Positions 12,972-41,030 of a stretch of DNA of 52,569 nucleotides are shown piece after piece (the stretch's first letter is position 1; every line of letters starts with the position of its first letter). The notes under the pieces were generated by a model. That model saw only the letters and a program-made list of their open reading frames with translations, was not told the DNA's origin and made no database searches. The DNA is from a virus (Duplodnaviria > Caudoviricetes). The position numbers were made by a program, and so were the translations under genes. The DNA lies in IMG/VR virus record IMGVR_UViG_3300022918_000016, positions 1 to 52,569 of that record; one strand, 5' to 3'.

Positions 12972-12994
12972 AATATAATCACTATATTTACCCC

Positions 12995-13067
12995 GTCATA
13001 ATTTCTATCTAAAACCAGTTTACTGTATAGCTGCTAACATAGCCCTTATACATGAACTGGTTTTTTT
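12995..13067 (+). ncRNA. Candidate antisense sRNA 1 (5' seed GUCAUAAUUUCUAU + long terminator hairpin)
   Basis: TAtaTTTA box 12983-12990; seed complementary to 8314-8327; stem 13011-13064 plus U tract; no ORF. Confidence 0.5.
13011..13067 (+). terminator. Intrinsic terminator ending the rightward early operon
   Basis: AAAACCAGTTTA/TGAACTGGTTTT stem with inner stems, then T7. Confidence 0.8.
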
Positions 13068-13082
13068 ATTTCCATAAAATAC

Positions 13083-13114
13083 AAAACCCGACAACAATTC
13101 AATATGCCGGGCTT
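13083..13114 (-). terminator. Intrinsic terminator for leftward transcription
   Basis: Minus strand GCCCGGCA...TGTCGGGT followed by TTTGT. Confidence 0.65.
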
Positions 13115-13141
13115 CGAAACTAATTCCGTGTGGAATCAATA

Positions 13142-15457: not shown

Positions 15458-15655
15458 TTATAGGTTTTTCTGGAAAACCCCATTTCCCGGGTAATCTCGC
15501 TGAATATGTTTTGACGTTTTAATGCTGTCAGTTTGTTTTTTAAGGTCATCAGTGTTTTTGTTAATCTTGCCTGCATCACAACACCCGAAGTTTATTACTA
15601 TAACCACAACGATTACAACGGCAACCCCTGTTAAACGGCTTAGAAATTCTTTCAT
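15458..15655 (-). CDS. Small membrane protein or lipoprotein
   Basis: Hydrophobic N-terminus ending in FGC. Confidence 0.55.
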   Translation of the reverse strand: MKEFLSRLTGVAVVIVVVIVINFGCCDAGKINKNTDDLKKQTDSIKTSKHIQRDYPGNGVFQKNL

Positions 15656-23620: not shown

Positions 23621-26336
23621 TCGCATACAAATTCAGCCACCCGCTAACCTCCTGAGCACTTACTGCCGCCCCGCTATCATTAATCCTAATACGGTTATAT
23701 AGCACAGGCGGCAGTATTCGTTTACTGTTATAATCCTTTAGGGTTACGTATCCTAAACCGTCTATACTGTACCTAAATCCATCTTCGTAACCAACTCCGT
23801 TTATTACCCTGGCGTTACCCTCTGCGATAACAACCACCTGAAACTGATTGTACTTTTCCTCAAACATACCTTTCATTACCCCACCAAATTCTTCGGGAGT
23901 TTCTGCGCCGAATATTAAACCCGTCCACTCCATATTTTTAGGATAACCCTGAATAATTAAACCGTCCTGGTCTAATGTTTCAATATAACCTCTACTTAGC
24001 TTCACGGCGGACTGCAAGGCGAAATATTCAGCAATATTCATCTGTAACTCGCACTCAAAGTTAAAACGCGTTAAAATCGCTCCTTTAGGGTAGAATGTTT
24101 CGCCTTCAGTTATTACAGGCTCGCTACCGAATTGCGTAATCGCATTTTTACCATACAGGTATTTAGTATTTTTAATCGGTAAAGGATTATTTAATAATAT
24201 CGTGGCTAACTCTGAATTGTAGTAATTTTCTAAAATACGCTGTTTCGTAAATCGTAAATTACCGAAATTATCGCCGTCATTTAATCCGCTTATTATTGTA
24301 AATCCTTCGTCAGTTCTTAATTTCAATGCTATAGAACTATCTATGATGTACGTGTATCTTGTATTTACATCAAGTAAATCGAAAAATTCACGCCCTGTAA
24401 TATCGCCTATAGGCTGCAGGGTTAAATCCTGCCTTGTAACGCCTGTAACTACGTAATTTCCTGCATTAGTGGTATTCAGTATTTTAAATATACTTCCTAC
24501 GACAATACCCAGCGTTACCCAGCTAAATGAATTATCATTTTTAAGACTTACAATCGGTATCGCGCCTGCCCTGGCAACGCTATGTATTAACTGTGATGTT
24601 TCGCTGCGTTCGCGTGTACCTGAAAACTGTGTAACATCTAATATCGCTATTTTATCATCATCCTGTGTGGCGGTATCATCAGTAGTTTCATTAGCTTTAT
24701 TCAGCATGTCCTGAATATAGAACGGATCGCGGATAAAACCTATGGTTATATCACGGGTATCAGCAACCATATCGTTAGGGATATAGTTTTCGCTTTCGCC
24801 ATGTACAATATCCAACGTGTTACCTGTAGTTGATTCTTTTTGGGAGGCGTAATTCGTGAACGAAATATTTACGGCGTTGCAGGTGGTGCGCTCATTTATT
24901 AATAAGCGCCATGTATCGTACTGCCTTACCGGTAACTCCGGAGTGTGGACGGTATATGTACCCATTCTAACGTTCCTGTAAAAATCCTCCCGTAACCCGA
25001 AAAATACAGTACCGTTATTTATCTGATAATCCCCGTTCAGCTCAGGTCGTATCTGTTTGTCTAAAATATCTTTCATAGATACATAGAAAGGCCTATCCAA
25101 ACCACGCATCAACTGCGCGTTGGTTATAAACTGGTCGTAAAACTCGCCGCCAAACTCAAAACGGGGCGCGCTAACCGGTAAACCTGAATTAGACAGCGTA
25201 ACATATTTTATAGCGTCTATGTAACGCACTGCGTCGATTATGCTGTTATACGCTACCTCGCTACCTTTAATCGTGAATTTTGACGGGTAAAATGTGTTTT
25301 TAGAAACGGCTATATCTGTACCTGCTGCGTGTATAAATACGAAGTAGAGGCATTCTCCCCTGTTTAAATCAGGTAACTGAATATCTGCTATAGTGCCGTT
25401 GTACTCATACGTTCTGCGGCTCGTATTAAGCACGCCTGTATCATATACAGTTATTCCGTTAGCGATATTAGCAGCTTTAAAATCATCGAAGCTTTCGCCG
25501 TAGACACCTTTAAATATTCTGCCGCGTATCTGCATGTTCGTAGCAGGCGGCGATTCGTTAGTCCACTCTGATTTAAGGTGTAGCTGCAAAGTCGCGGTTA
25601 AGCCGGTAAGATTTGAATCTGCCCTAAGAAACACGAAATTTTGCGGCGGTGTATTATAATCAGAGACGCTGTTACCGCCTGCCGTATCGGTTTCATTAAC
25701 CAAATTAGTTAATGAGGCATCAATATCGCCTTTAGTAATATTCTGTATAGCGTTAAAAAAACCTGGCAGTATAGTATTACCCTGTGGTCCTAATGGTTGA
25801 AATCCTAACGGCCTGTAACGCGATATAACTATTTCAGACGGATTAGTCCACTCCGATTCCTTAGTATAGGGCTTAGCAGGCATGTAAATTTTATACTTAG
25901 CGCATGGCGTTATAGGCTCGCCCTTCAAATTTACCGTAGAAAATAAATCTACAGTAGTTTCCATCGTTTCTTTAAACTTCGCTTCGGTGCTATCCTGAAT
26001 AACGGTAAACTCAAAGAATGTTTTACCATCCGTGTCAGGATCTATCATGTTTACGTTACCCAGCACAATAATACCATCGCCATAATCGATGCTTATTTTA
26101 ACTTTAGCCTGATGCGATTGTAATTTCCAGTTCAGTAATAATAAATCAAGGCAGCCATTCATTTTATCCGTTACCCGGTATTTAAAACCTGAATCCCCGG
26201 CTGACTGCGTATCTCTGCCTTTCCTGCCGTCATCCTGTTTTATGGAGAACGAAACAGCATCAGCCCCTTGCGGTTCTTCAATTTCACGCACGCCGTGACC
26301 GGAAGTTATAAAGTCGAGATATATTCTTAATGCCAT
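23613..26336 (-). CDS. Large tail tip / central tail protein
   Basis: 907-aa beta-rich ORF, next structural gene downstream of the tape measure. Confidence 0.7.
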   Translation of the reverse strand: MALRIYLDFITSGHGVREIEEPQGADAVSFSIKQDDGRKGRDTQSAGDSGFKYRVTDKMNGCLDLLLLNWKLQSHQAKVKISIDYGDGIIVLGNVNMIDPDTDGKTFFEFTVIQDSTEAKFKETMETTVDLFSTVNLKGEPITPCAKYKIYMPAKPYTKESEWTNPSEIVISRYRPLGFQPLGPQGNTILPGFFNAIQNITKGDIDASLTNLVNETDTAGGNSVSDYNTPPQNFVFLRADSNLTGLTATLQLHLKSEWTNESPPATNMQIRGRIFKGVYGESFDDFKAANIANGITVYDTGVLNTSRRTYEYNGTIADIQLPDLNRGECLYFVFIHAAGTDIAVSKNTFYPSKFTIKGSEVAYNSIIDAVRYIDAIKYVTLSNSGLPVSAPRFEFGGEFYDQFITNAQLMRGLDRPFYVSMKDILDKQIRPELNGDYQINNGTVFFGLREDFYRNVRMGTYTVHTPELPVRQYDTWRLLINERTTCNAVNISFTNYASQKESTTGNTLDIVHGESENYIPNDMVADTRDITIGFIRDPFYIQDMLNKANETTDDTATQDDDKIAILDVTQFSGTRERSETSQLIHSVARAGAIPIVSLKNDNSFSWVTLGIVVGSIFKILNTTNAGNYVVTGVTRQDLTLQPIGDITGREFFDLLDVNTRYTYIIDSSIALKLRTDEGFTIISGLNDGDNFGNLRFTKQRILENYYNSELATILLNNPLPIKNTKYLYGKNAITQFGSEPVITEGETFYPKGAILTRFNFECELQMNIAEYFALQSAVKLSRGYIETLDQDGLIIQGYPKNMEWTGLIFGAETPEEFGGVMKGMFEEKYNQFQVVVIAEGNARVINGVGYEDGFRYSIDGLGYVTLKDYNSKRILPPVLYNRIRINDSGAAVSAQEVSGWLNLYAIR

Positions 26337-26373
26337 GTGGTAAAAGTAATAAATTTATTTGTATGTTTGTAGT

Positions 26374-26456
26374 CTATTAAATGGGTTTGATAGGTCATAA
26401 TTTTGGTTCGGTTTTTTAGGGATACAGATATTTTTTAAATGTCTGTATTTTTTTTT
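26374..26456 (+). ncRNA. Candidate sRNA 2 (U-rich, contains GUCAUAAUUU)
   Basis: TAtgTTTG 26362-26369; terminator GATACAGATA/TGTCTGTATT plus T run at 26421-26456, with G-U pairs favouring the + strand; only a 12-codon ORF inside. Confidence 0.55.
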
Positions 26457-26491
26457 GTGAAATAATTAAATATAAGTTGTATGTTTGTGGC

Positions 26492-26572
26492 ACGGACAGC
26501 GACCCGTAACTAAAAACTTAACAATAGCCCTTTATTATACTGTCGCTGGTATTTTAGAGGGTTTATTATTTT
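26492..26572 (+). ncRNA. Structured 5' leader, kissing-loop motif copy 1
   Basis: ACGG-[ACAGCGAC]-CCGT hairpin; second hairpin with loop TGTCGCTG; promoter TAtgTTTG 26480-26487. Confidence 0.65.
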
Positions 26573-27199
26573 ATGAAAGTATTAAAAGTGTTGATTGCCT
26601 GTGAAGAAAGCCAGGCTGTTACGAAAGAGTTCAGAGCGTTAGGACATGAAGCTTTTAGCTGCGATATACTACCGTGCAGCGGTGGGCATCCCGAATGGCA
26701 CTTACAACAGGATGTAACCGAATTATTAAAACATGAGTGGGATTTAGTTATTGCATTTCCGCCTTGTACCCATTTAGCATGCTCAGGTTCCAGGCACTTT
26801 GCTAAAAAAATTGAAGACGGTAGGCAACAACAAGGTGTAGACTTTTTTATGTTATTTACTAATATTGATTGTCAGTATGTTGTGATAGAAAACCCTATAG
26901 GAGTTATGAGTTCAAAATACAGAAAACCTAACCAAATAATTCAACCATTTCAATACGGGCATCCATCTAAAAAATCTACTTGCTTATGGTTAAAAAATAC
27001 GCCATTACTCAAACCAACTAATATTGTTGAGCCTGAAATAATAACACTAAGTAATGGTAAGAAATTTTCTGCGGACTACATGAAAGGGGTAAAAAGAAGC
27101 AAAGCCGGTGAAAGTAGCGTAGAAAGGAGTAAGACTTATCCCGGCATCGCAAAAGCTATGGCAGAGCAATGGTCTGAATATATTTTATCTAAAATTTAA
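26573..27199 (+). CDS. DNA cytosine-C5 methyltransferase (short phage type)
   Basis: VLIACEES, AFPPCTHL, IENPIG, TCLWLK, RSKTYPGIA.AMA.QW. Confidence 0.8.
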   Translation: MKVLKVLIACEESQAVTKEFRALGHEAFSCDILPCSGGHPEWHLQQDVTELLKHEWDLVIAFPPCTHLACSGSRHFAKKIEDGRQQQGVDFFMLFTNIDCQYVVIENPIGVMSSKYRKPNQIIQPFQYGHPSKKSTCLWLKNTPLLKPTNIVEPEIITLSNGKKFSADYMKGVKRSKAGESSVERSKTYPGIAKAMAEQWSEYILSKI

Positions 27200-27204
27200 T
27201 TATC

Positions 27205-27459
27205 ATGGAAGATCAATACAAAAAGTACAGAGAATTCACGAAAGAGGAACGTGAATGGGTGAACAGGCTTAAGAAATTAATGAATGAAAAAGCGTGTGGC
27301 AATTTACTTATGTTCATTGGAAGTGGTAGTATGGTTATTTACACTACTCCAGGAGATTATAAAAGCAATCTTTATATGACCAGTGAAGGAGGAGTAGATC
27401 AATACGCTCCAAATTTTAATATAAATACTAAATGCGCCTGCGACGGTGGGGACTGGTAA
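27205..27459 (+). CDS. Hypothetical protein (C-terminal DGGDW)
   Basis: ORF in the operon. Confidence 0.7.
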   Translation: MEDQYKKYREFTKEEREWVNRLKKLMNEKACGNLLMFIGSGSMVIYTTPGDYKSNLYMTSEGGVDQYAPNFNINTKCACDGGDW

Positions 27460-27511
27460 ATAATTTTTCACAAAACCCTACTTCAATTAAAATAAATAAT
27501 TATATTTGCAA

Positions 27512-27605
27512 TGCAGACCGCTACCTGCACAAACTCATAAGTCTTGAATGACTAACAGAGAAACCTCATAGAATGCTGTAGCGGCTTTTATGGGGTTTTC
27601 TTTTT
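27512..27605 (+). ncRNA. Structured 5' leader / attenuator, kissing-loop motif copy 2
   Basis: TGCAG-[ACCGCTAC]-CTGCA hairpin; terminator-like hairpin with GTAGCGG in the loop plus U tract; promoter TAtaTTTG 27501-27508. Confidence 0.7.
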
Positions 27606-27618
27606 ATATTTTATTATT

Positions 27619-27882
27619 ATGAAAACAATATTTAAGCAGAAATTAAAAATAACAGATTTACAGGTTGTTGAATTGCCTGTAAATTCTAAGTTTTTAACTG
27701 TTCAAATGCAGGATGGAATTCCTTGCTTGTGGTATGAGCATAATTCAGATGCCGTAACCGATAAATTCAATATTTATACTTTCGGTACTGGACACGAAAT
27801 AACAACTGATAATAAAATCAGTTATCTGGCTACGTACCAATCAGGAATGTTTGTAGGACACGTTTATTACGCTAAACAATGA
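27619..27882 (+). CDS. Hypothetical phage protein
   Basis: L.VQMQ..IPCLW...GTGH...Y..TYQ...FVGHV pattern. Confidence 0.75.
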   Translation: MKTIFKQKLKITDLQVVELPVNSKFLTVQMQDGIPCLWYEHNSDAVTDKFNIYTFGTGHEITTDNKISYLATYQSGMFVGHVYYAKQ

Positions 27883-28169
27883 TCCACTACAACGACCCAA
27901 AATACCAACAGGAACGCGCTAATGTAAAGCCTCTGAGTGTTGAGGAAATGCAGGAATGCATCGACGGTATTAACCAGCTTATACATAACACCAAGGAATA
28001 TACTCCCTACTCTCAGGATTTATCTATAGTCGCTAATCTACAACGCCTGATATGGGATTACGAAAACCTGCAGCATATGAGGGAGACATACGAAGCCGCA
28101 TTACAGGAAAAATACGATGAAGGATTTGAAAAGGGACACGCTTACGCAGTTAATACTTACATAAAATAA
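27879..28169 (+). CDS. Hypothetical protein
   Basis: ATGA-coupled ORF. Confidence 0.7.
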   Translation: MIHYNDPKYQQERANVKPLSVEEMQECIDGINQLIHNTKEYTPYSQDLSIVANLQRLIWDYENLQHMRETYEAALQEKYDEGFEKGHAYAVNTYIK

Positions 28170-28182
28170 AAACCAAAATATT

Positions 28183-28440
28183 ATGAGCAGACCAAAAGGA
28201 ATTTCCGTTATCGTAAAAACAGAAGCGGAGTACAAAAAAGTACAGGATTTTTTAACTAAAGAGGTACTTTATGTTAATTGGCATCCGGTTATGGAAACTA
28301 CAGAAACAGCTATAGTTTTAAAAGCTGATAAAAACAGCGATTTCTCTACAGGCAGTGTTGGATTGGCTGCATACCAGAGAGAGTGCGGAATAAAAACAAT
28401 GCCGTTTATAGAAAACCTATCATCTTATTTAACGAATTAA
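28183..28440 (+). CDS. Hypothetical protein
   Basis: ORF in the operon. Confidence 0.7.
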   Translation: MSRPKGISVIVKTEAEYKKVQDFLTKEVLYVNWHPVMETTETAIVLKADKNSDFSTGSVGLAAYQRECGIKTMPFIENLSSYLTN

Positions 28441-28444
28441 AATT

Positions 28445-29725
28445 ATGAGAAACATTAAAGATTTAAAACCTAATGAGTGCATTAAAATTAGCACTAAGAA
28501 GGAGGCGCGTAAAATATTTGAATTACTGGGAAGAAATCCGACTTATAATTTAAAATTATATGTGGGTTTTTATGTATTTTTTTCAGAACCTTATCCTGAA
28601 ATGATTTTTAGCGAAAATTACCTCTCTAAAGGCATGGTATCTGTTAACGCCTCCGAATTCCTACCCAAGAAGCACAGCCGTAAAAAACAGCTTTATAACA
28701 GCATAGCGGAAAATACGCATGATATACAGGCGTTGCAATCAGCTTTTAAAATATTGGCTGATAAGGTTGATTCGTTGCCGTCAGTTAACTGGAGCGATAA
28801 CGGTATTGTTAAGGTAAATATTCCAGGGCTTAAACTTGAAGATTCCGTCACTATAAGTCCCGAAGCGTTATTATTCGAGCCTGCCAGTAAACCTGAATCG
28901 TTAACTGAATTGCCTGAAAAGTGGTATATATCCGTAAACGATGGAAACCGTGGTATGATCGAGAAATGGCGCTCAGGACTTGAATCACTCAGAAATAAAA
29001 CCCTTAGTTATGGGCTCTATGTTAATGAATCTGGCAGAGGTTTTTCAGGAATTCCCGAATCTACCGAAATATCGACCGAAGATTTTAAACGCTTAGTGCT
29101 TAAGGAAAATGTTTTGGAGGTGGGTAATTGGTATAAAGATAAATCCCGTGTCGATACAAGTGTTCCTTATAGGTTTATTTTTATAAAAAACATAAATGAA
29201 GGGAGTATTGAAACTTGTGGCTTTGATGGTTTTGGAAATTGGTTTACTGAATCATATTATAATTTAGATGAAGCTGTTTTAGCGACCCAACAAGAAGTTC
29301 AGTCCTCTTTAATAAACGAGGCTGAAAAAAGATACAAATTTGAACAAGAAATCAATGCTATAGATGATACTGAAAATGGCAGTCCAGTAAGAAAACAGCC
29401 CTTAATAGGCAGTGATTATCAATTTAAAGATGGACGATTATTTTCTTTAGGGTTTGGTAAATGGTGTGTTTTTAAAAACGGCATCTGGGCAGAGATAGTT
29501 AAGCCTGTTAAAGAAGAAATTGATTGGAGTAAGCCGGGGCAGTTGTTTGAGGCTGTAAGTGACGGTTGTATAATTTTAAACTCAGGAGAAAGCAACGAAA
29601 GGCAAATGCAAGGAATAATAGTTTATTCAACAACCAACGCGTATCCGTTAGGCTGTTTTAAATGTGGATGGTTAAAAAGCGACTTAAAACTATACACCGG
29701 CGAACCCATAACATTATCAAATTAG
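28445..29725 (+). CDS. Mosaic multi-module hypothetical protein
   Basis: 426-aa ORF with short modules (LPEKWYI, LEVGNWYK, IDWSKPGQL). Confidence 0.75.
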   Translation: MRNIKDLKPNECIKISTKKEARKIFELLGRNPTYNLKLYVGFYVFFSEPYPEMIFSENYLSKGMVSVNASEFLPKKHSRKKQLYNSIAENTHDIQALQSAFKILADKVDSLPSVNWSDNGIVKVNIPGLKLEDSVTISPEALLFEPASKPESLTELPEKWYISVNDGNRGMIEKWRSGLESLRNKTLSYGLYVNESGRGFSGIPESTEISTEDFKRLVLKENVLEVGNWYKDKSRVDTSVPYRFIFIKNINEGSIETCGFDGFGNWFTESYYNLDEAVLATQQEVQSSLINEAEKRYKFEQEINAIDDTENGSPVRKQPLIGSDYQFKDGRLFSLGFGKWCVFKNGIWAEIVKPVKEEIDWSKPGQLFEAVSDGCIILNSGESNERQMQGIIVYSTTNAYPLGCFKCGWLKSDLKLYTGEPITLSN

Positions 29726-40875: not shown

Positions 40876-41005
40876 AAAGCATTAAAGGCTATGCCTAAAT
40901 TAATAAGCATAGCCTTTTGAGTTGTAATATGAGGGGTAACCTGTATCTTCACAGATTTTAATATTTTATGTTAACCCTGTAAAGGGATATTGTATTGCAA
41001 ATATA
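40876..41005 (-). promoter_or_regulatory. Promoter and structured leader of the head operon
   Basis: TAtaTTTG 41005-40998; three hairpins, the last (AAAGGCTATGC/GCATAGCCTTT, 40884-40917) just before the ATG. Confidence 0.6.
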
Positions 41006-41030
41006 ACTAAAATTTGTTATAAGCAATAAA

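What the first reader, a model, noticed from the sequence alone, without database searches (positions are those of the whole stretch)
26480..26575. Kissing-loop leader RNA (copy 1) upstream of a DNA methyltransferase
Seen: promoter TAtgTTTG (26480-26487), then ACGG-[ACAGCGAC]-CCGT (26492-26507), then an imperfect hairpin 26523-26567 whose loop GTCGCTG (26542-26548) complements CAGCGAC (26497-26503). The 8-nt loop length, the 5' A and the TGT start of loop 2 match copy 2. The 3' arm ends 5 nt before the MTase ATG and has only a weak U tract, so it may occlude translation initiation rather than terminate. The two copies have non-cross-pairing loops, which suggests orthogonal switches.
Basis: partly seen in the sequence, partly recalled or inferred. 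Interest (0 to 1): 0.8.

Follow-up and report, generated by a model that had tools for sequence, protein, structure and literature searches.

The report
Kissing-hairpin leader RNAs heading phage gene cassettes
Two short RNA leaders in this phage, each starting right at a promoter, have a small first hairpin whose loop base-pairs with the loop of a second hairpin just before the gene, and related phages keep this pairing while changing the letters, so it is a real and apparently undescribed regulatory module.

Summary
I located its "copy 2" at 27501-27604. One copy alone is not beyond chance. The comparative evidence is what supports it.

- A homologous element in another phage contig (L001) has loop 1 ACTGCAAC and loop 2 GTTGCAG. 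The same two positions differ among copy 1, copy 2 and L001, and all changes are compensated.
- A second group (L293/L074 versus L296) differs at 4 of 7 loop-1 bases, all compensated in loop 2, while the stems are identical and the flanks nearly so.
- A further leader sits directly upstream of an MTase orthologue (L072) and has two fully complementary 7-nt loops.
- In all of these, hairpin 1 begins 3-5 nt after a Bacteroidota TAnnTTTG box, which is at or next to the predicted transcription start.
- Hairpin 2 is followed by a T-rich tail. In the L293 group it is a canonical terminator.
- The leaders are conserved junction modules between swapped gene cassettes, comparable to PeSLs.
- Rfam has no matching family, and no RNA data were available.

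My best reading is a cis-acting 5' leader locked by an intramolecular loop-loop helix. The structure is well supported. Its output (attenuation, mRNA stability or insulation) is inferred. "Orthogonal loops" is confirmed energetically. "Switch" and "start-codon occlusion" are untested.

The parts
26480..26487 (+). -7 promoter box TATGTTTG of leader copy 1 (Bacteroidota sigma-A type). A TTTG lies 21 nt upstream at 26455-58.
   Evidence: The box position of -12 to -5 comes from a PMC9723704 passage and gives a predicted +1 at 26492. The box and its upstream region are conserved in G001, G003 and the L191 contig.
26492..26507 (+). Hairpin 1 of copy 1. Stem ACGG/CCGU, 8-nt loop ACAGCGAC (26496-26503). 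It begins at the predicted first transcribed base.
   Evidence: It is identical in G001. The L001 homologue has stem AGGA/UCCU, which is two stem pairs changed on both sides, and loop ACUGCAAC.
26508..26525 (+). A-rich single-stranded spacer AACUAAAAACUUAACAAU.
   Evidence: Unpaired in the MFE fold. AA(N)UAAAAAC is shared with L001.
26526..26563 (+). Hairpin 2 of copy 1. It is an imperfect 14-bp stem with a UU/UU internal loop. The apical loop GUCGCU(G) at 26542-26548 is complementary to 26497-26503.
   Evidence: Loop duplex -12.1 kcal/mol. The base AGCCCU is shared with L001.
26564..26572 (+). AU-rich tail UUAUUAUUU between hairpin 2 and the ATG. It could be a terminator U-tract, an SD-less initiation region, or both.
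   Evidence: 8 T in the first 10 nt after the stem. Only 3 of 82 crude genes have an SD-like motif, and A+T is about 80% at positions -16 to -1.
26573..27199 (+). DNA methyltransferase gene (208 aa), the first gene of cassette 1. It is followed by an 84-aa ORF at 27205-27459.
   Evidence: phrog_757 E 7.5e-68. Pfam PF00145 weak. blastn hits to phage MTases.
27501..27508 (+). -7 promoter box TATATTTG of leader copy 2.
   Evidence: Predicted +1 at 27513. Conserved in the L191 contig.
27512..27529 (+). Hairpin 1 of copy 2. Stem UGCAG/CUGCA, 8-nt loop ACCGCUAC (27517-24).
   Evidence: In L191 the only change inside the leader transcript is A27529G, which turns U-A into U-G.
27557..27603 (+). Hairpin 2 of copy 2, a long stem. 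GUAGCGG at 27578-84 in its apical part is complementary to 27518-24. It is followed by UUUUUAUAUUUU.
   Evidence: z -4.19, 0 of 200 shuffles as stable. Loop duplex -11.7 kcal/mol. Tail has 8 T in 10.
27619..27882 (+). DUF7352 gene (87 aa), the first gene of cassette 2.
   Evidence: PF24043 E 5.9e-20. A 90%-identical gene in G003/L180 has no such leader.
26362..26458 (+). Upstream companion unit. It has a second TATGTTTG box (26362-69), about 85 nt of sequence, and a strong hairpin with a T9 run (about 26417-26458) abutting the copy-1 promoter. This forms a composite terminator/promoter.
   Evidence: z -4.28. Conserved in G001, G003 and L191.

Best explanation
The two elements are cis-acting structured 5' leader RNAs at the heads of two small gene cassettes in a Bacteroidota-type tailed phage. 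These cassettes lie in a plus-strand island between a 907-aa gene and the tape-measure gene.

Proposed anatomy. Transcription from a TAnnTTTG promoter starts at the first base of a short hairpin, or one base before it. The 7-8-nt loop of that hairpin forms a 7-bp Watson-Crick helix with the apical loop of a second, longer hairpin. That second hairpin ends 9-15 nt before the start codon and is followed by a U-rich tail. The result is an intramolecular kissing complex that ties the 5' end to hairpin 2 and makes the leader a closed, autonomous fold.

What is shown: the sequence anatomy, the position relative to the promoter box, the covariation of the loop pairs, and the modular conservation.

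What is inferred. I think the most likely role is that the kissing helix stabilises and pre-organises a terminator-like hairpin 2. The leader would then act as an attenuator or gate for the cassette. Terminated products would be compact small RNAs. Read-through mRNAs would carry a protected 5' end and an initiation region insulated from whichever ORF has been swapped in behind it.

Different loop sequences in the two copies keep the two leaders from pairing with each other.
For: 1.

2. In all of A, A', B, D, E1 and E2, hairpin 1 starts 3-5 nt after the box. With the box at -12 to -5 (PMC9723704 passage), this leaves at most about one unpaired 5' nucleotide.

3. Covariation between homologues.
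- L001/L130 was recovered by a pattern that says nothing about loop 2.
- Of the 99 matches to that pattern, only the 2 related contigs have a 4/4 stem, and only those 2 have the 7-mer complement.
- Loop 1 of L001 differs from copy 1 at N3 and N6 of ACNGCNAC, and loop 2 carries both compensating changes. The same holds for copy 2.
- L293 and L296 are homologous by their flanks. Differences between them: 4 of 7 loop-1 bases, 7 of 15 columns in the loop-2 region, 0 of 10 hairpin-1 stem bases, 1 of 16 terminator-arm bases, 3 of 39 spacer bases and 5 of 282 downstream bases.
- Each of the two keeps an 8-bp complement.
- Pair counting gave 72 of 72 cells paired, against 22-47% with slid partners.

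4. The three one-sided changes seen all give G-U on the plus strand. They are A27529G in L191 and two terminator pairs. This fits an RNA of this strand and does not fit a DNA duplex.

5. L072 has the same layout directly upstream of an MTase orthologue, with two fully complementary 7-nt apical loops and z -5.19.

6. Cognate loop duplexes are -8.6 to -12.1 kcal/mol. Non-cognate pairs are -2 to -6.

7. Controls. Among promoter-adjacent hairpins in all held loci, 10 distinct elements have a GC-containing reverse complement downstream. The reversed word gave 2, the complemented word 3 (2 of them an artefact of copy 1's near-symmetric loop) and the same word 2.

8. Hairpin 2 is followed by 5-8 T in 10 nt in every type. 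In the L293 group it is a canonical GC stem plus T7, and no conserved ORF follows it.

9. The same leader precedes different genes. Copy 2 does so in the window and in L191. The type-C leader does so in G003 and in L191.
Against: - There is no transcript, 5'-end, 3'-end or probing data. No RNA run is listed.
- The family is small: about six loop variants from roughly nine contigs.
- Several members (L072, L293, L296, L013) were found by a scan that required complementarity. Their complementarity is therefore not independent evidence. Only the homologue comparisons are.
- With three sequences the shuffle control is not significant (57 of 500 shuffles reach the observed value).
- MFE z-scores of copy 1 and L001 are modest (-2.4 and -2.0).
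- The simple terminator scan flags neither hairpin 2 in the window. U-richness before a start codon is the norm in this SD-less genome, so it does not by itself show termination.
- The hypervariability of the loops is not needed for a purely cis structural role. It points towards selection on specificity, which would favour a trans component.
- The related type-C leader forms a 17-bp nested 5'-3' helix, not a kissing complex, so the class is not uniform.
Confidence: 0.6

Rival explanations
1. The leaders act in trans as specificity determinants, like an RNA immunity, incompatibility or copy-number system. Short terminated leader RNAs, or the 5' hairpin alone, would kiss loop 2 of nascent transcripts from the same or a co-infecting genome and set termination or read-through. 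Loop sequences would diversify to create orthogonal groups.
For: The loops are far more variable than their surroundings. Between L293 and L296, 4 of 7 and 7 of 15 positions differ in the loops, against 5 of 282 downstream. Two non-cross-pairing specificities occur in one genome. The L293-type unit is a promoter-to-terminator small RNA with no conserved ORF behind it.
Against: Both partners lie on the same molecule 34-50 nt apart, so intramolecular pairing should dominate kinetically. No antisense promoter box lies in either leader on the minus strand. There are no expression data. With so few sequences, hypervariability could also come from recombination between leader variants.
Confidence: 0.15
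2. The conserved intergenic blocks are mainly DNA-level recombination linkers and transcription-unit boundaries (PeSL-like or moron boundaries). Under this view the loop complementarity has no RNA tertiary function.
For: Homology with relatives breaks exactly at the leader edges. The break points are 26495, 27457 and 27625, with 1070 unrelated bases between the first two in the L191 contig. The flanking genes are swapped. A terminator hairpin abuts the copy-1 promoter. PeSLs in T4-type phages are composite terminator/promoter motifs that mediate such exchange (PMC4122927 abstract).
Against: A linker needs sequence identity and has no need for compensated changes. Yet the loops change in pairs, and one-sided changes give G-U on the plus strand only. 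The two roles are not exclusive. I regard the linker role as an additional property.
Confidence: 0.12
3. The leader is a polymerase-modifying antitermination RNA of the HK022 put kind. Two stem-loops transcribed just after an early promoter would bind RNA polymerase in cis and let it read through downstream terminators.
For: The position is immediately downstream of promoters. There are two copies per genome and two stem-loops. A terminator-like hairpin of copy 2 lies downstream of cassette 1. The put properties are recalled and were not checked here.
Against: There is no sequence or structure model to test against. Rfam gives no hit. In the L293 group the second hairpin is itself a canonical terminator. 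The variable loops argue against a conserved polymerase-binding surface.
Confidence: 0.07
4. The feature is either chance complementarity in AT-rich intergenic DNA or an inverted-repeat operator for a DNA-binding protein.
For: The loose scan finds many such arrangements by chance. The z-score of copy 1 is weak.
Against: The strict scan returns only the two copies. Changes in homologues are compensated. The half-site spacing is variable: 45 and 60 nt start to start in the two window copies, and 34-50 nt from hairpin-1 end to the complement across all types. Each half sits in a hairpin loop, which is unlike an operator.
Confidence: 0.04

Closest known systems
PeSLs (promoter-early stem-loops) of T4-type phages. 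PMC4122927: abstract read. PMC2839356: seen in the search listing only.
   Same: They are short conserved intergenic promoter/stem-loop modules at the borders of exchanged gene cassettes in hyperplastic regions. Copy 1 has a terminator hairpin abutting its promoter.
   Different: PeSLs are defined as a terminator plus a sigma-70 early promoter in T4-like myoviruses. The abstract describes no downstream leader and no loop-loop pairing. Here the conserved unit extends about 80-110 nt downstream of the promoter as a folded RNA with co-varying loops. The promoter is of the Bacteroidota type, and there is no sequence similarity.
Antisense-RNA kissing control of leaders (pT181/pIP501 attenuation, ColE1 RNA I/II, R1 CopA/CopT).
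   Same: A 7-nt loop-loop helix between hairpins acts as the recognition step. A terminator sits in the leader. Specificity is set by a few loop bases that can change in pairs.
   Different: Those systems use a separate countertranscript from an antisense promoter. Here both loops lie on the same sense transcript, and no minus-strand promoter box is present.
P1/P7 c4 and P4 CI immunity RNAs. Recalled, not read; one search gave only tangential listings.
   Same: They are phage leader-derived RNAs that pair with complementary sequences in the same operon. Heteroimmunity arises from a few compensated base differences.
   Different: Those are processed trans-acting repressors in temperate enterobacterial phages with defined targets at a ribosome-binding site or terminator. 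No processing and no lysogeny module has been shown here.
5'-terminal stabiliser hairpins such as the ompA 5' UTR. Recalled.
   Same: A hairpin begins at or within about one nucleotide of the 5' end.
   Different: Stabiliser hairpins need no partner loop. Here the loop is under pairing constraint.
Guanidine-II (mini-ykkC) riboswitch and other leaders with loop-loop tertiary contacts. Recalled.
   Same: Two hairpins in a 5' leader, joined by a variable linker, interact through their loops just upstream of a start codon.
   Different: Guanidine-II has conserved ACGR tetraloops that bind a ligand. The loops here are 7-9 nt, fully Watson-Crick complementary and variable in sequence. Rfam gives no match.

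Membership tests
Any Rfam 15 family (riboswitches, leaders, ribozymes such as pistol, sRNAs) | Covariance-model score at or above the family's gathering threshold | tested here: not met
   There were 0 hits at gathering threshold over the whole window. Only chance-level hits (E 0.39-9.7, far below gathering) appeared in 26330-27640. There were 0 hits at E<=0.1 in L293, L072, L001, L180 and L191.
PeSL-type cassette junction | A conserved intergenic block at the exact borders of exchanged, unrelated genes | tested here: met
   Homology with the L191 contig ends at 26495, resumes at 27457-27625 (96% over 169 nt) and then ends again. The genes on both sides differ. The type-C leader precedes different ORFs in G003 and L191.
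PeSL-type cassette junction | A composite of a terminator stem-loop immediately followed by an early promoter | tested here: inconclusive
   This is present upstream of copy 1: a hairpin plus T9 at about 26417-26458, then the box at 26480. It is absent upstream of copy 2, where the promoter follows the stop codon of the 84-aa ORF by 41 nt with no hairpin.
PeSL-type cassette junction | Sequence relatedness to T4-type PeSLs with a sigma-70 early promoter | tested here: not met
   The promoter is TAnnTTTG. blastn against 50,697 phage records finds only MTase coding matches and no match to the L293 or L072 leaders.
Intrinsic terminator / transcription attenuator | A G+C-rich hairpin followed directly by a U-tract | tested here: inconclusive
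   T-rich tails of 5-8 in 10 nt follow every hairpin 2. The L293/L296 hairpin is canonical, with an 8-11-bp GC-rich stem plus T7. The window's two hairpins are long and imperfect and are not flagged by the consensus scan. AU-rich sequence before a start codon is general in this genome.
Countertranscript (antisense) kissing attenuation | An antisense promoter producing an RNA complementary to the leader | tested here: not met
   There is no TAnnTTTG box on the minus strand between 25933 and 29893. Both complementary loops are on the plus strand.
Intramolecular kissing-hairpin leader (the class proposed here) | Loop 1 and loop 2 remain complementary when their sequences change in homologues | tested here: met
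   Copy 1, L001 and copy 2 differ at 2 variable positions, all compensated. L293 versus L296 has 4 pairs changed on both sides, of which 2 are countable in register on alignment A4.
Intramolecular kissing-hairpin leader (the class proposed here) | Hairpin 1 lies at the transcript's 5' end | not testable with these tools
   This is only predicted. The gap of 3-5 nt between the box and the stem in 9 of 9 listed instances is combined with the published box position. No RNA holder is listed.
HK022 put-like antitermination RNA | Binds RNA polymerase in cis and suppresses downstream terminators | not testable with these tools
   No model or assay is available. The positional analogy is all there is.

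The most novel reading that the evidence does not exclude
The leaders form a programmable RNA-RNA recognition system. The loop pair would be a specificity code under diversifying selection. Leader RNAs would act between molecules (between cassettes, genome copies or co-infecting relatives) to set termination or read-through. That would make this an RNA-only immunity or copy-sensing device in Bacteroidota phages, and a natural set of orthogonal kissing-loop parts.
Probability: 0.15. Interest if true: 0.85.

Novelty: new variant of a known kind. Interest (0 to 1): 0.62.

Why it matters
Bacteroidota and their phages lack Shine-Dalgarno-led initiation, and their initiation is tuned by mRNA structure (PMC6847099 abstract). 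Very few cis-regulatory RNAs are known for them.

A compact leader of about 75-95 nt would be a new regulatory part class. Its fold is held by a short, re-codable loop-loop helix, and it travels with swapped gene cassettes. If real, it could explain how accessory genes such as an anti-restriction-type methyltransferase get context-independent early expression. It would also offer ready-made orthogonal leader parts for engineering Bacteroidota. Finally, it links RNA structure to the modular evolution of phage hyperplastic regions.

Tried and rejected
- Rfam. A gathering search of the window and E-value searches of the leaders and of five related loci gave nothing.
- Expression data. No RNA holder is listed. 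Laying three DNA runs only reproduced the cassette junctions.
- Family expansion by pattern.
  - ACNGCNACNNNNAANTAAAAAC in IMG/VR gave 99 matches, 2 of them real and both already known.
  - TAAAAACNTNNACN{0,4}AGCCCTT gave 27 loci, of which only L130 is real. My pattern also failed to match copy 1 itself.
  - The promoter pattern gave 5 loci: 3 known relatives and 2 coding chance hits.
  - The degenerate A-type pattern in metagenome contigs gave 30 matches, 1 of them real and already known.
  - A 22-nt core of the L293 type in genome contigs gave 2 loci, with no new loop variant.
- Family expansion by protein.
  - DUF7352 gave 4 loci, none with a leader.
  - The 426-aa and 907-aa neighbours gave only one further relative contig.
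  - The L001 MTase gave no close relative of that contig, but its loci yielded L293 and L296.
- Cultured phages. Cellulophaga phages with the same MTase have it inside operons, and their small gaps show no such architecture. There are no blastn matches to the L293 or L072 leaders.
- Covariance model. None was built, because MAFFT misaligned the copy-2 loop against copy 1 and custom alignments cannot be supplied. I used my own descriptor scans instead.
- Other intergenic gaps of the window. The other seven plus-strand 5' gaps have z between -1.2 and +0.9. The other strongly structured gaps look like terminators.
- Additional ACNGCNAC sites at 15618 and 41399 are not hairpin loops.
- Literature. 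Searches for kissing/loop-loop/terminator/leader/bacteriophage and for TAnnTTTG plus bacteriophage found no description of such a leader. Supplements were not consulted.
Full report
**Observation**

The window is the whole held record, a 52,569-bp virus contig with 37% G+C. It carries a primase, a helicase, a large terminase, a portal-like protein and a tape-measure protein. Only 3 of 82 crude genes have a Shine-Dalgarno-like motif. This fits a Bacteroidota host, as does the use of TAnnTTTG boxes.

- the box TATGTTTG at 26480-87;
- hairpin 1, ACGG-ACAGCGAC-CCGT, at 26492-26507;
- GTCGCTG at 26542-48, in the apical loop of a second imperfect hairpin (MFE 26526-26563);
- ATG at 26573, opening a 208-aa DNA methyltransferase.

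I found it at 27501-27604:
- the box TATATTTG;
- hairpin 1, TGCAG-ACCGCTAC-CTGCA;
- a long second hairpin at 27557-27603 holding GTAGCGG;
- a T-rich tail, then the ATG of a DUF7352 gene at 27619.

Both first loops read ACNGCNAC.

**Is it more than chance?**

One copy alone is not. The fold z-score of copy 1 is -1.3 to -2.4. A loose scan for a 4-bp stem, an 8-nt loop and a downstream 7-mer complement gives 27 rows in the window, against a mean of 12 in shuffles. The box motif is not enriched genome-wide.

With modest G+C requirements, the same scan on both strands returns exactly two hits. These are the two copies, each directly behind a box. Of the nine plus-strand 5' gaps folded, these two have z of about -3 and the other seven lie between -1.2 and +0.9.

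**Relatives**

Three related contigs exist at about 70-90% nucleotide identity: G001 (54.75 kb, terminal repeats), G003 and the L191/L219/L223 contig. A more distant fragment, G002 (L001/L130), has an MTase 75% identical.

- *Copy 1.* It is present in G001 with hairpins and loops unchanged and only one spacer substitution, although the MTase behind it is only 63% identical in protein.
- *L001.* A clearly homologous element lies after the MTase and before an unrelated 81-aa ORF. It shares the loop frame, the spacer AA(N)TAAAAAC and the hairpin-2 base AGCCCT. Its stem 1 is AGGA/TCCT, loop 1 is ACTGCAAC and loop 2 holds GTTGCAG.
- *Independence of the L001 find.* This contig was also recovered by a pattern that specifies nothing about loop 2. 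Among the 99 IMG/VR matches to that pattern, only the two related contigs have a complete stem, and only those two have the complement. In the metagenome scan the figure was 1 of 30.
- *Result.* The two variable loop positions take three states (A,G / C,U / U,A), each matched in loop 2.

**A second, cleaner test**

Scanning the MTase-neighbour loci with loops of 7-9 nt found another group, L293/L074/L334 and L296. Its layout is:
- the box TACATTTG;
- 5 nt;
- the hairpin TCGAA-N7-TTCGA;
- two small hairpins;
- a canonical terminator, ACCCTAGC-loop-GCTAGGGT-T7.

L293 and L296 are homologous through their flanks. They differ at 4 of 7 loop-1 bases and in 7 of 15 columns of the loop-2 region. By contrast they differ at 0 of 10 stem-1 bases, 1 of 16 terminator-arm bases, 3 of 39 spacer bases and 5 of 282 downstream bases. 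Each keeps an 8-bp loop-loop complement: ACTCGTACT with AGTACGAG, and ATCCACACT with AGTGTGGA.

On alignment A4, 72 of 72 cells pair, against 22-47% with slid partners. Two of the six loop-loop pairs that are in register change on both sides. With only three sequences the shuffle control is weak, at 57 of 500.

**A further member**

L072 sits directly upstream of an MTase orthologue. It has two fully complementary 7-nt apical loops (GUAGAAG and CUUCUAC) and z -5.19.

**Controls and an ascertainment caveat**

Across all held loci, promoter-adjacent hairpins with a G+C-containing downstream reverse complement number 10 distinct elements. Control words gave 2, 3 and 2.

L072, L293, L296 and L013 were found by a scan that demanded complementarity. 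Only the homologue comparisons count as independent evidence.

**RNA rather than DNA**

- The three one-sided substitutions seen all create G-U on the plus strand.
- The spacing between the complementary words varies, from 34 to 50 nt.
- Both words lie in hairpin loops.
- The box occupies -12 to -5 in Flavobacterium (PMC9723704 passage; consensus also quoted in PMC7366714). The gap of 3-5 nt between box and stem in all nine listed instances therefore places hairpin 1 at the first or second transcribed nucleotide.

**Modularity**

Homology between the window and the L191 contig runs as follows:
- it ends at 26495;
- it is replaced by 1070 unrelated bases;
- it resumes from the stop codon at 27457 to ATGAAAA at 27625, which is the copy-2 leader with a single A-to-G change inside the transcribed leader;
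- it is then lost again.

At the copy-1 site, G003 and L191 carry a different "type C" leader behind the same promoter. In type C the 5' end forms a 17-bp interrupted helix with a segment about 55 nt downstream (-23 kcal/mol, z -3.3). Part of an AGCCC-based hairpin 2 is sequestered in that fold. Type C precedes different ORFs in the two contigs. A DUF7352 gene 90% identical to the window's has no leader in G003.

The leaders are therefore portable units at cassette borders. The closest described analogue is the PeSL of T4-type phages (PMC4122927 abstract). The copy-1 promoter is itself abutted by a strong terminator hairpin that follows a second box at 26362.

**Mechanism**

Shown:
- the anatomy;
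- the promoter-relative position;
- the compensated loop changes;
- the loop energetics, with cognate pairs at -8.6 to -12.1 kcal/mol and non-cognate pairs at -2 to -6;
- the modular conservation.

Inferred:
- The loops form an intramolecular kissing helix that closes the leader into a compact domain with a paired 5' end.
- Hairpin 2 is followed by 5-8 T in 10 nt everywhere and is an unambiguous terminator in the L293 group. On that basis I favour a kissing-stabilised attenuator or gate at the head of each cassette, with 5'-end protection and insulation of the AU-rich, SD-less initiation region as by-products.
It is also not excluded.
- The excess variability of the loops is more than a purely cis role requires. 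It keeps a trans, specificity-driven reading alive.

**Comparison and novelty**

No Rfam family matches. No cultured phage carries the element. Two literature searches found no description.

The element works like known loop-loop recognition systems and like leader attenuators, and it sits like a PeSL. It fails the defining tests of each. It has no countertranscript promoter and no sigma-70 PeSL sequence, and the terminator-promoter composite is found at only one copy.

I rate it a new variant of a known kind. It is a small but real family, supported computationally only.

Noticed in passing
window 26362-26458 (+): A second TATGTTTG box is followed by about 85 nt and a strong hairpin with a T9 run (z -4.28). 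This is a candidate small RNA or a terminator-promoter composite directly upstream of the copy-1 promoter. The boxes and terminator are conserved in G001, G003 and L191, while the middle part varies.
   Followed up: partly
L180 383-507 and L191 1403-1530: A 'type C' leader sits behind the same promoter as copy 1. Its 5' end pairs over 17 bp with a segment about 55 nt downstream, competing with an AGCCCGTATA/TATACGGG hairpin. It looks like an antiterminator/terminator pair. It precedes different ORFs in the two contigs.
   Followed up: partly
L293 about 915-1197 (also L296, L074, L334): About 280 nt of non-coding sequence between the leader's terminator and the MTase start is almost invariant (5 of 282 positions differ between L293 and L296). 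It shows no significant fold (z +0.43) and has no Rfam hit. A word GAGTAC/GAGTGC inside it changes in step with loop 2 of the leader.
   Followed up: partly
window 26573-29725 (+): A plus-strand island of six small genes (MTase, 84 aa, DUF7352, 96 aa, 85 aa, 426 aa) lies between a minus-strand 907-aa gene and the tape-measure gene. Its content differs in every relative, so it behaves as a hyperplastic, moron-like region.
   Followed up: partly
window, all genes: Only 3 of 82 crude genes have GGAG/GAGG/AGGA at -20 to -4. A is enriched at about -13 to -11, -5 and -3. This is the SD-less, Kozak-like pattern described for Bacteroidota.
   Followed up: partly
window 40876-41030 (-) and 12972-13141 (-): These intergenic regions are very strongly structured (z -6.3 and -4.0), with several perfect hairpins. 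They are probably terminators between structural-gene operons.
   Followed up: no
L013 minus strand about 896-990: This is a possible further member. It has the box TACATTTG, a weak AAAT/ATTT hairpin with loop CACGCATT, and AATGCGTG in the loop of a TTATCA/TGATAA hairpin about 60 nt downstream.
   Followed up: no
L335 4631-4652: The 22-nt middle hairpin of the L293-type leader recurs in an otherwise unrelated context. The contig is binned as a Nitrosomonadales MAG.
   Followed up: no
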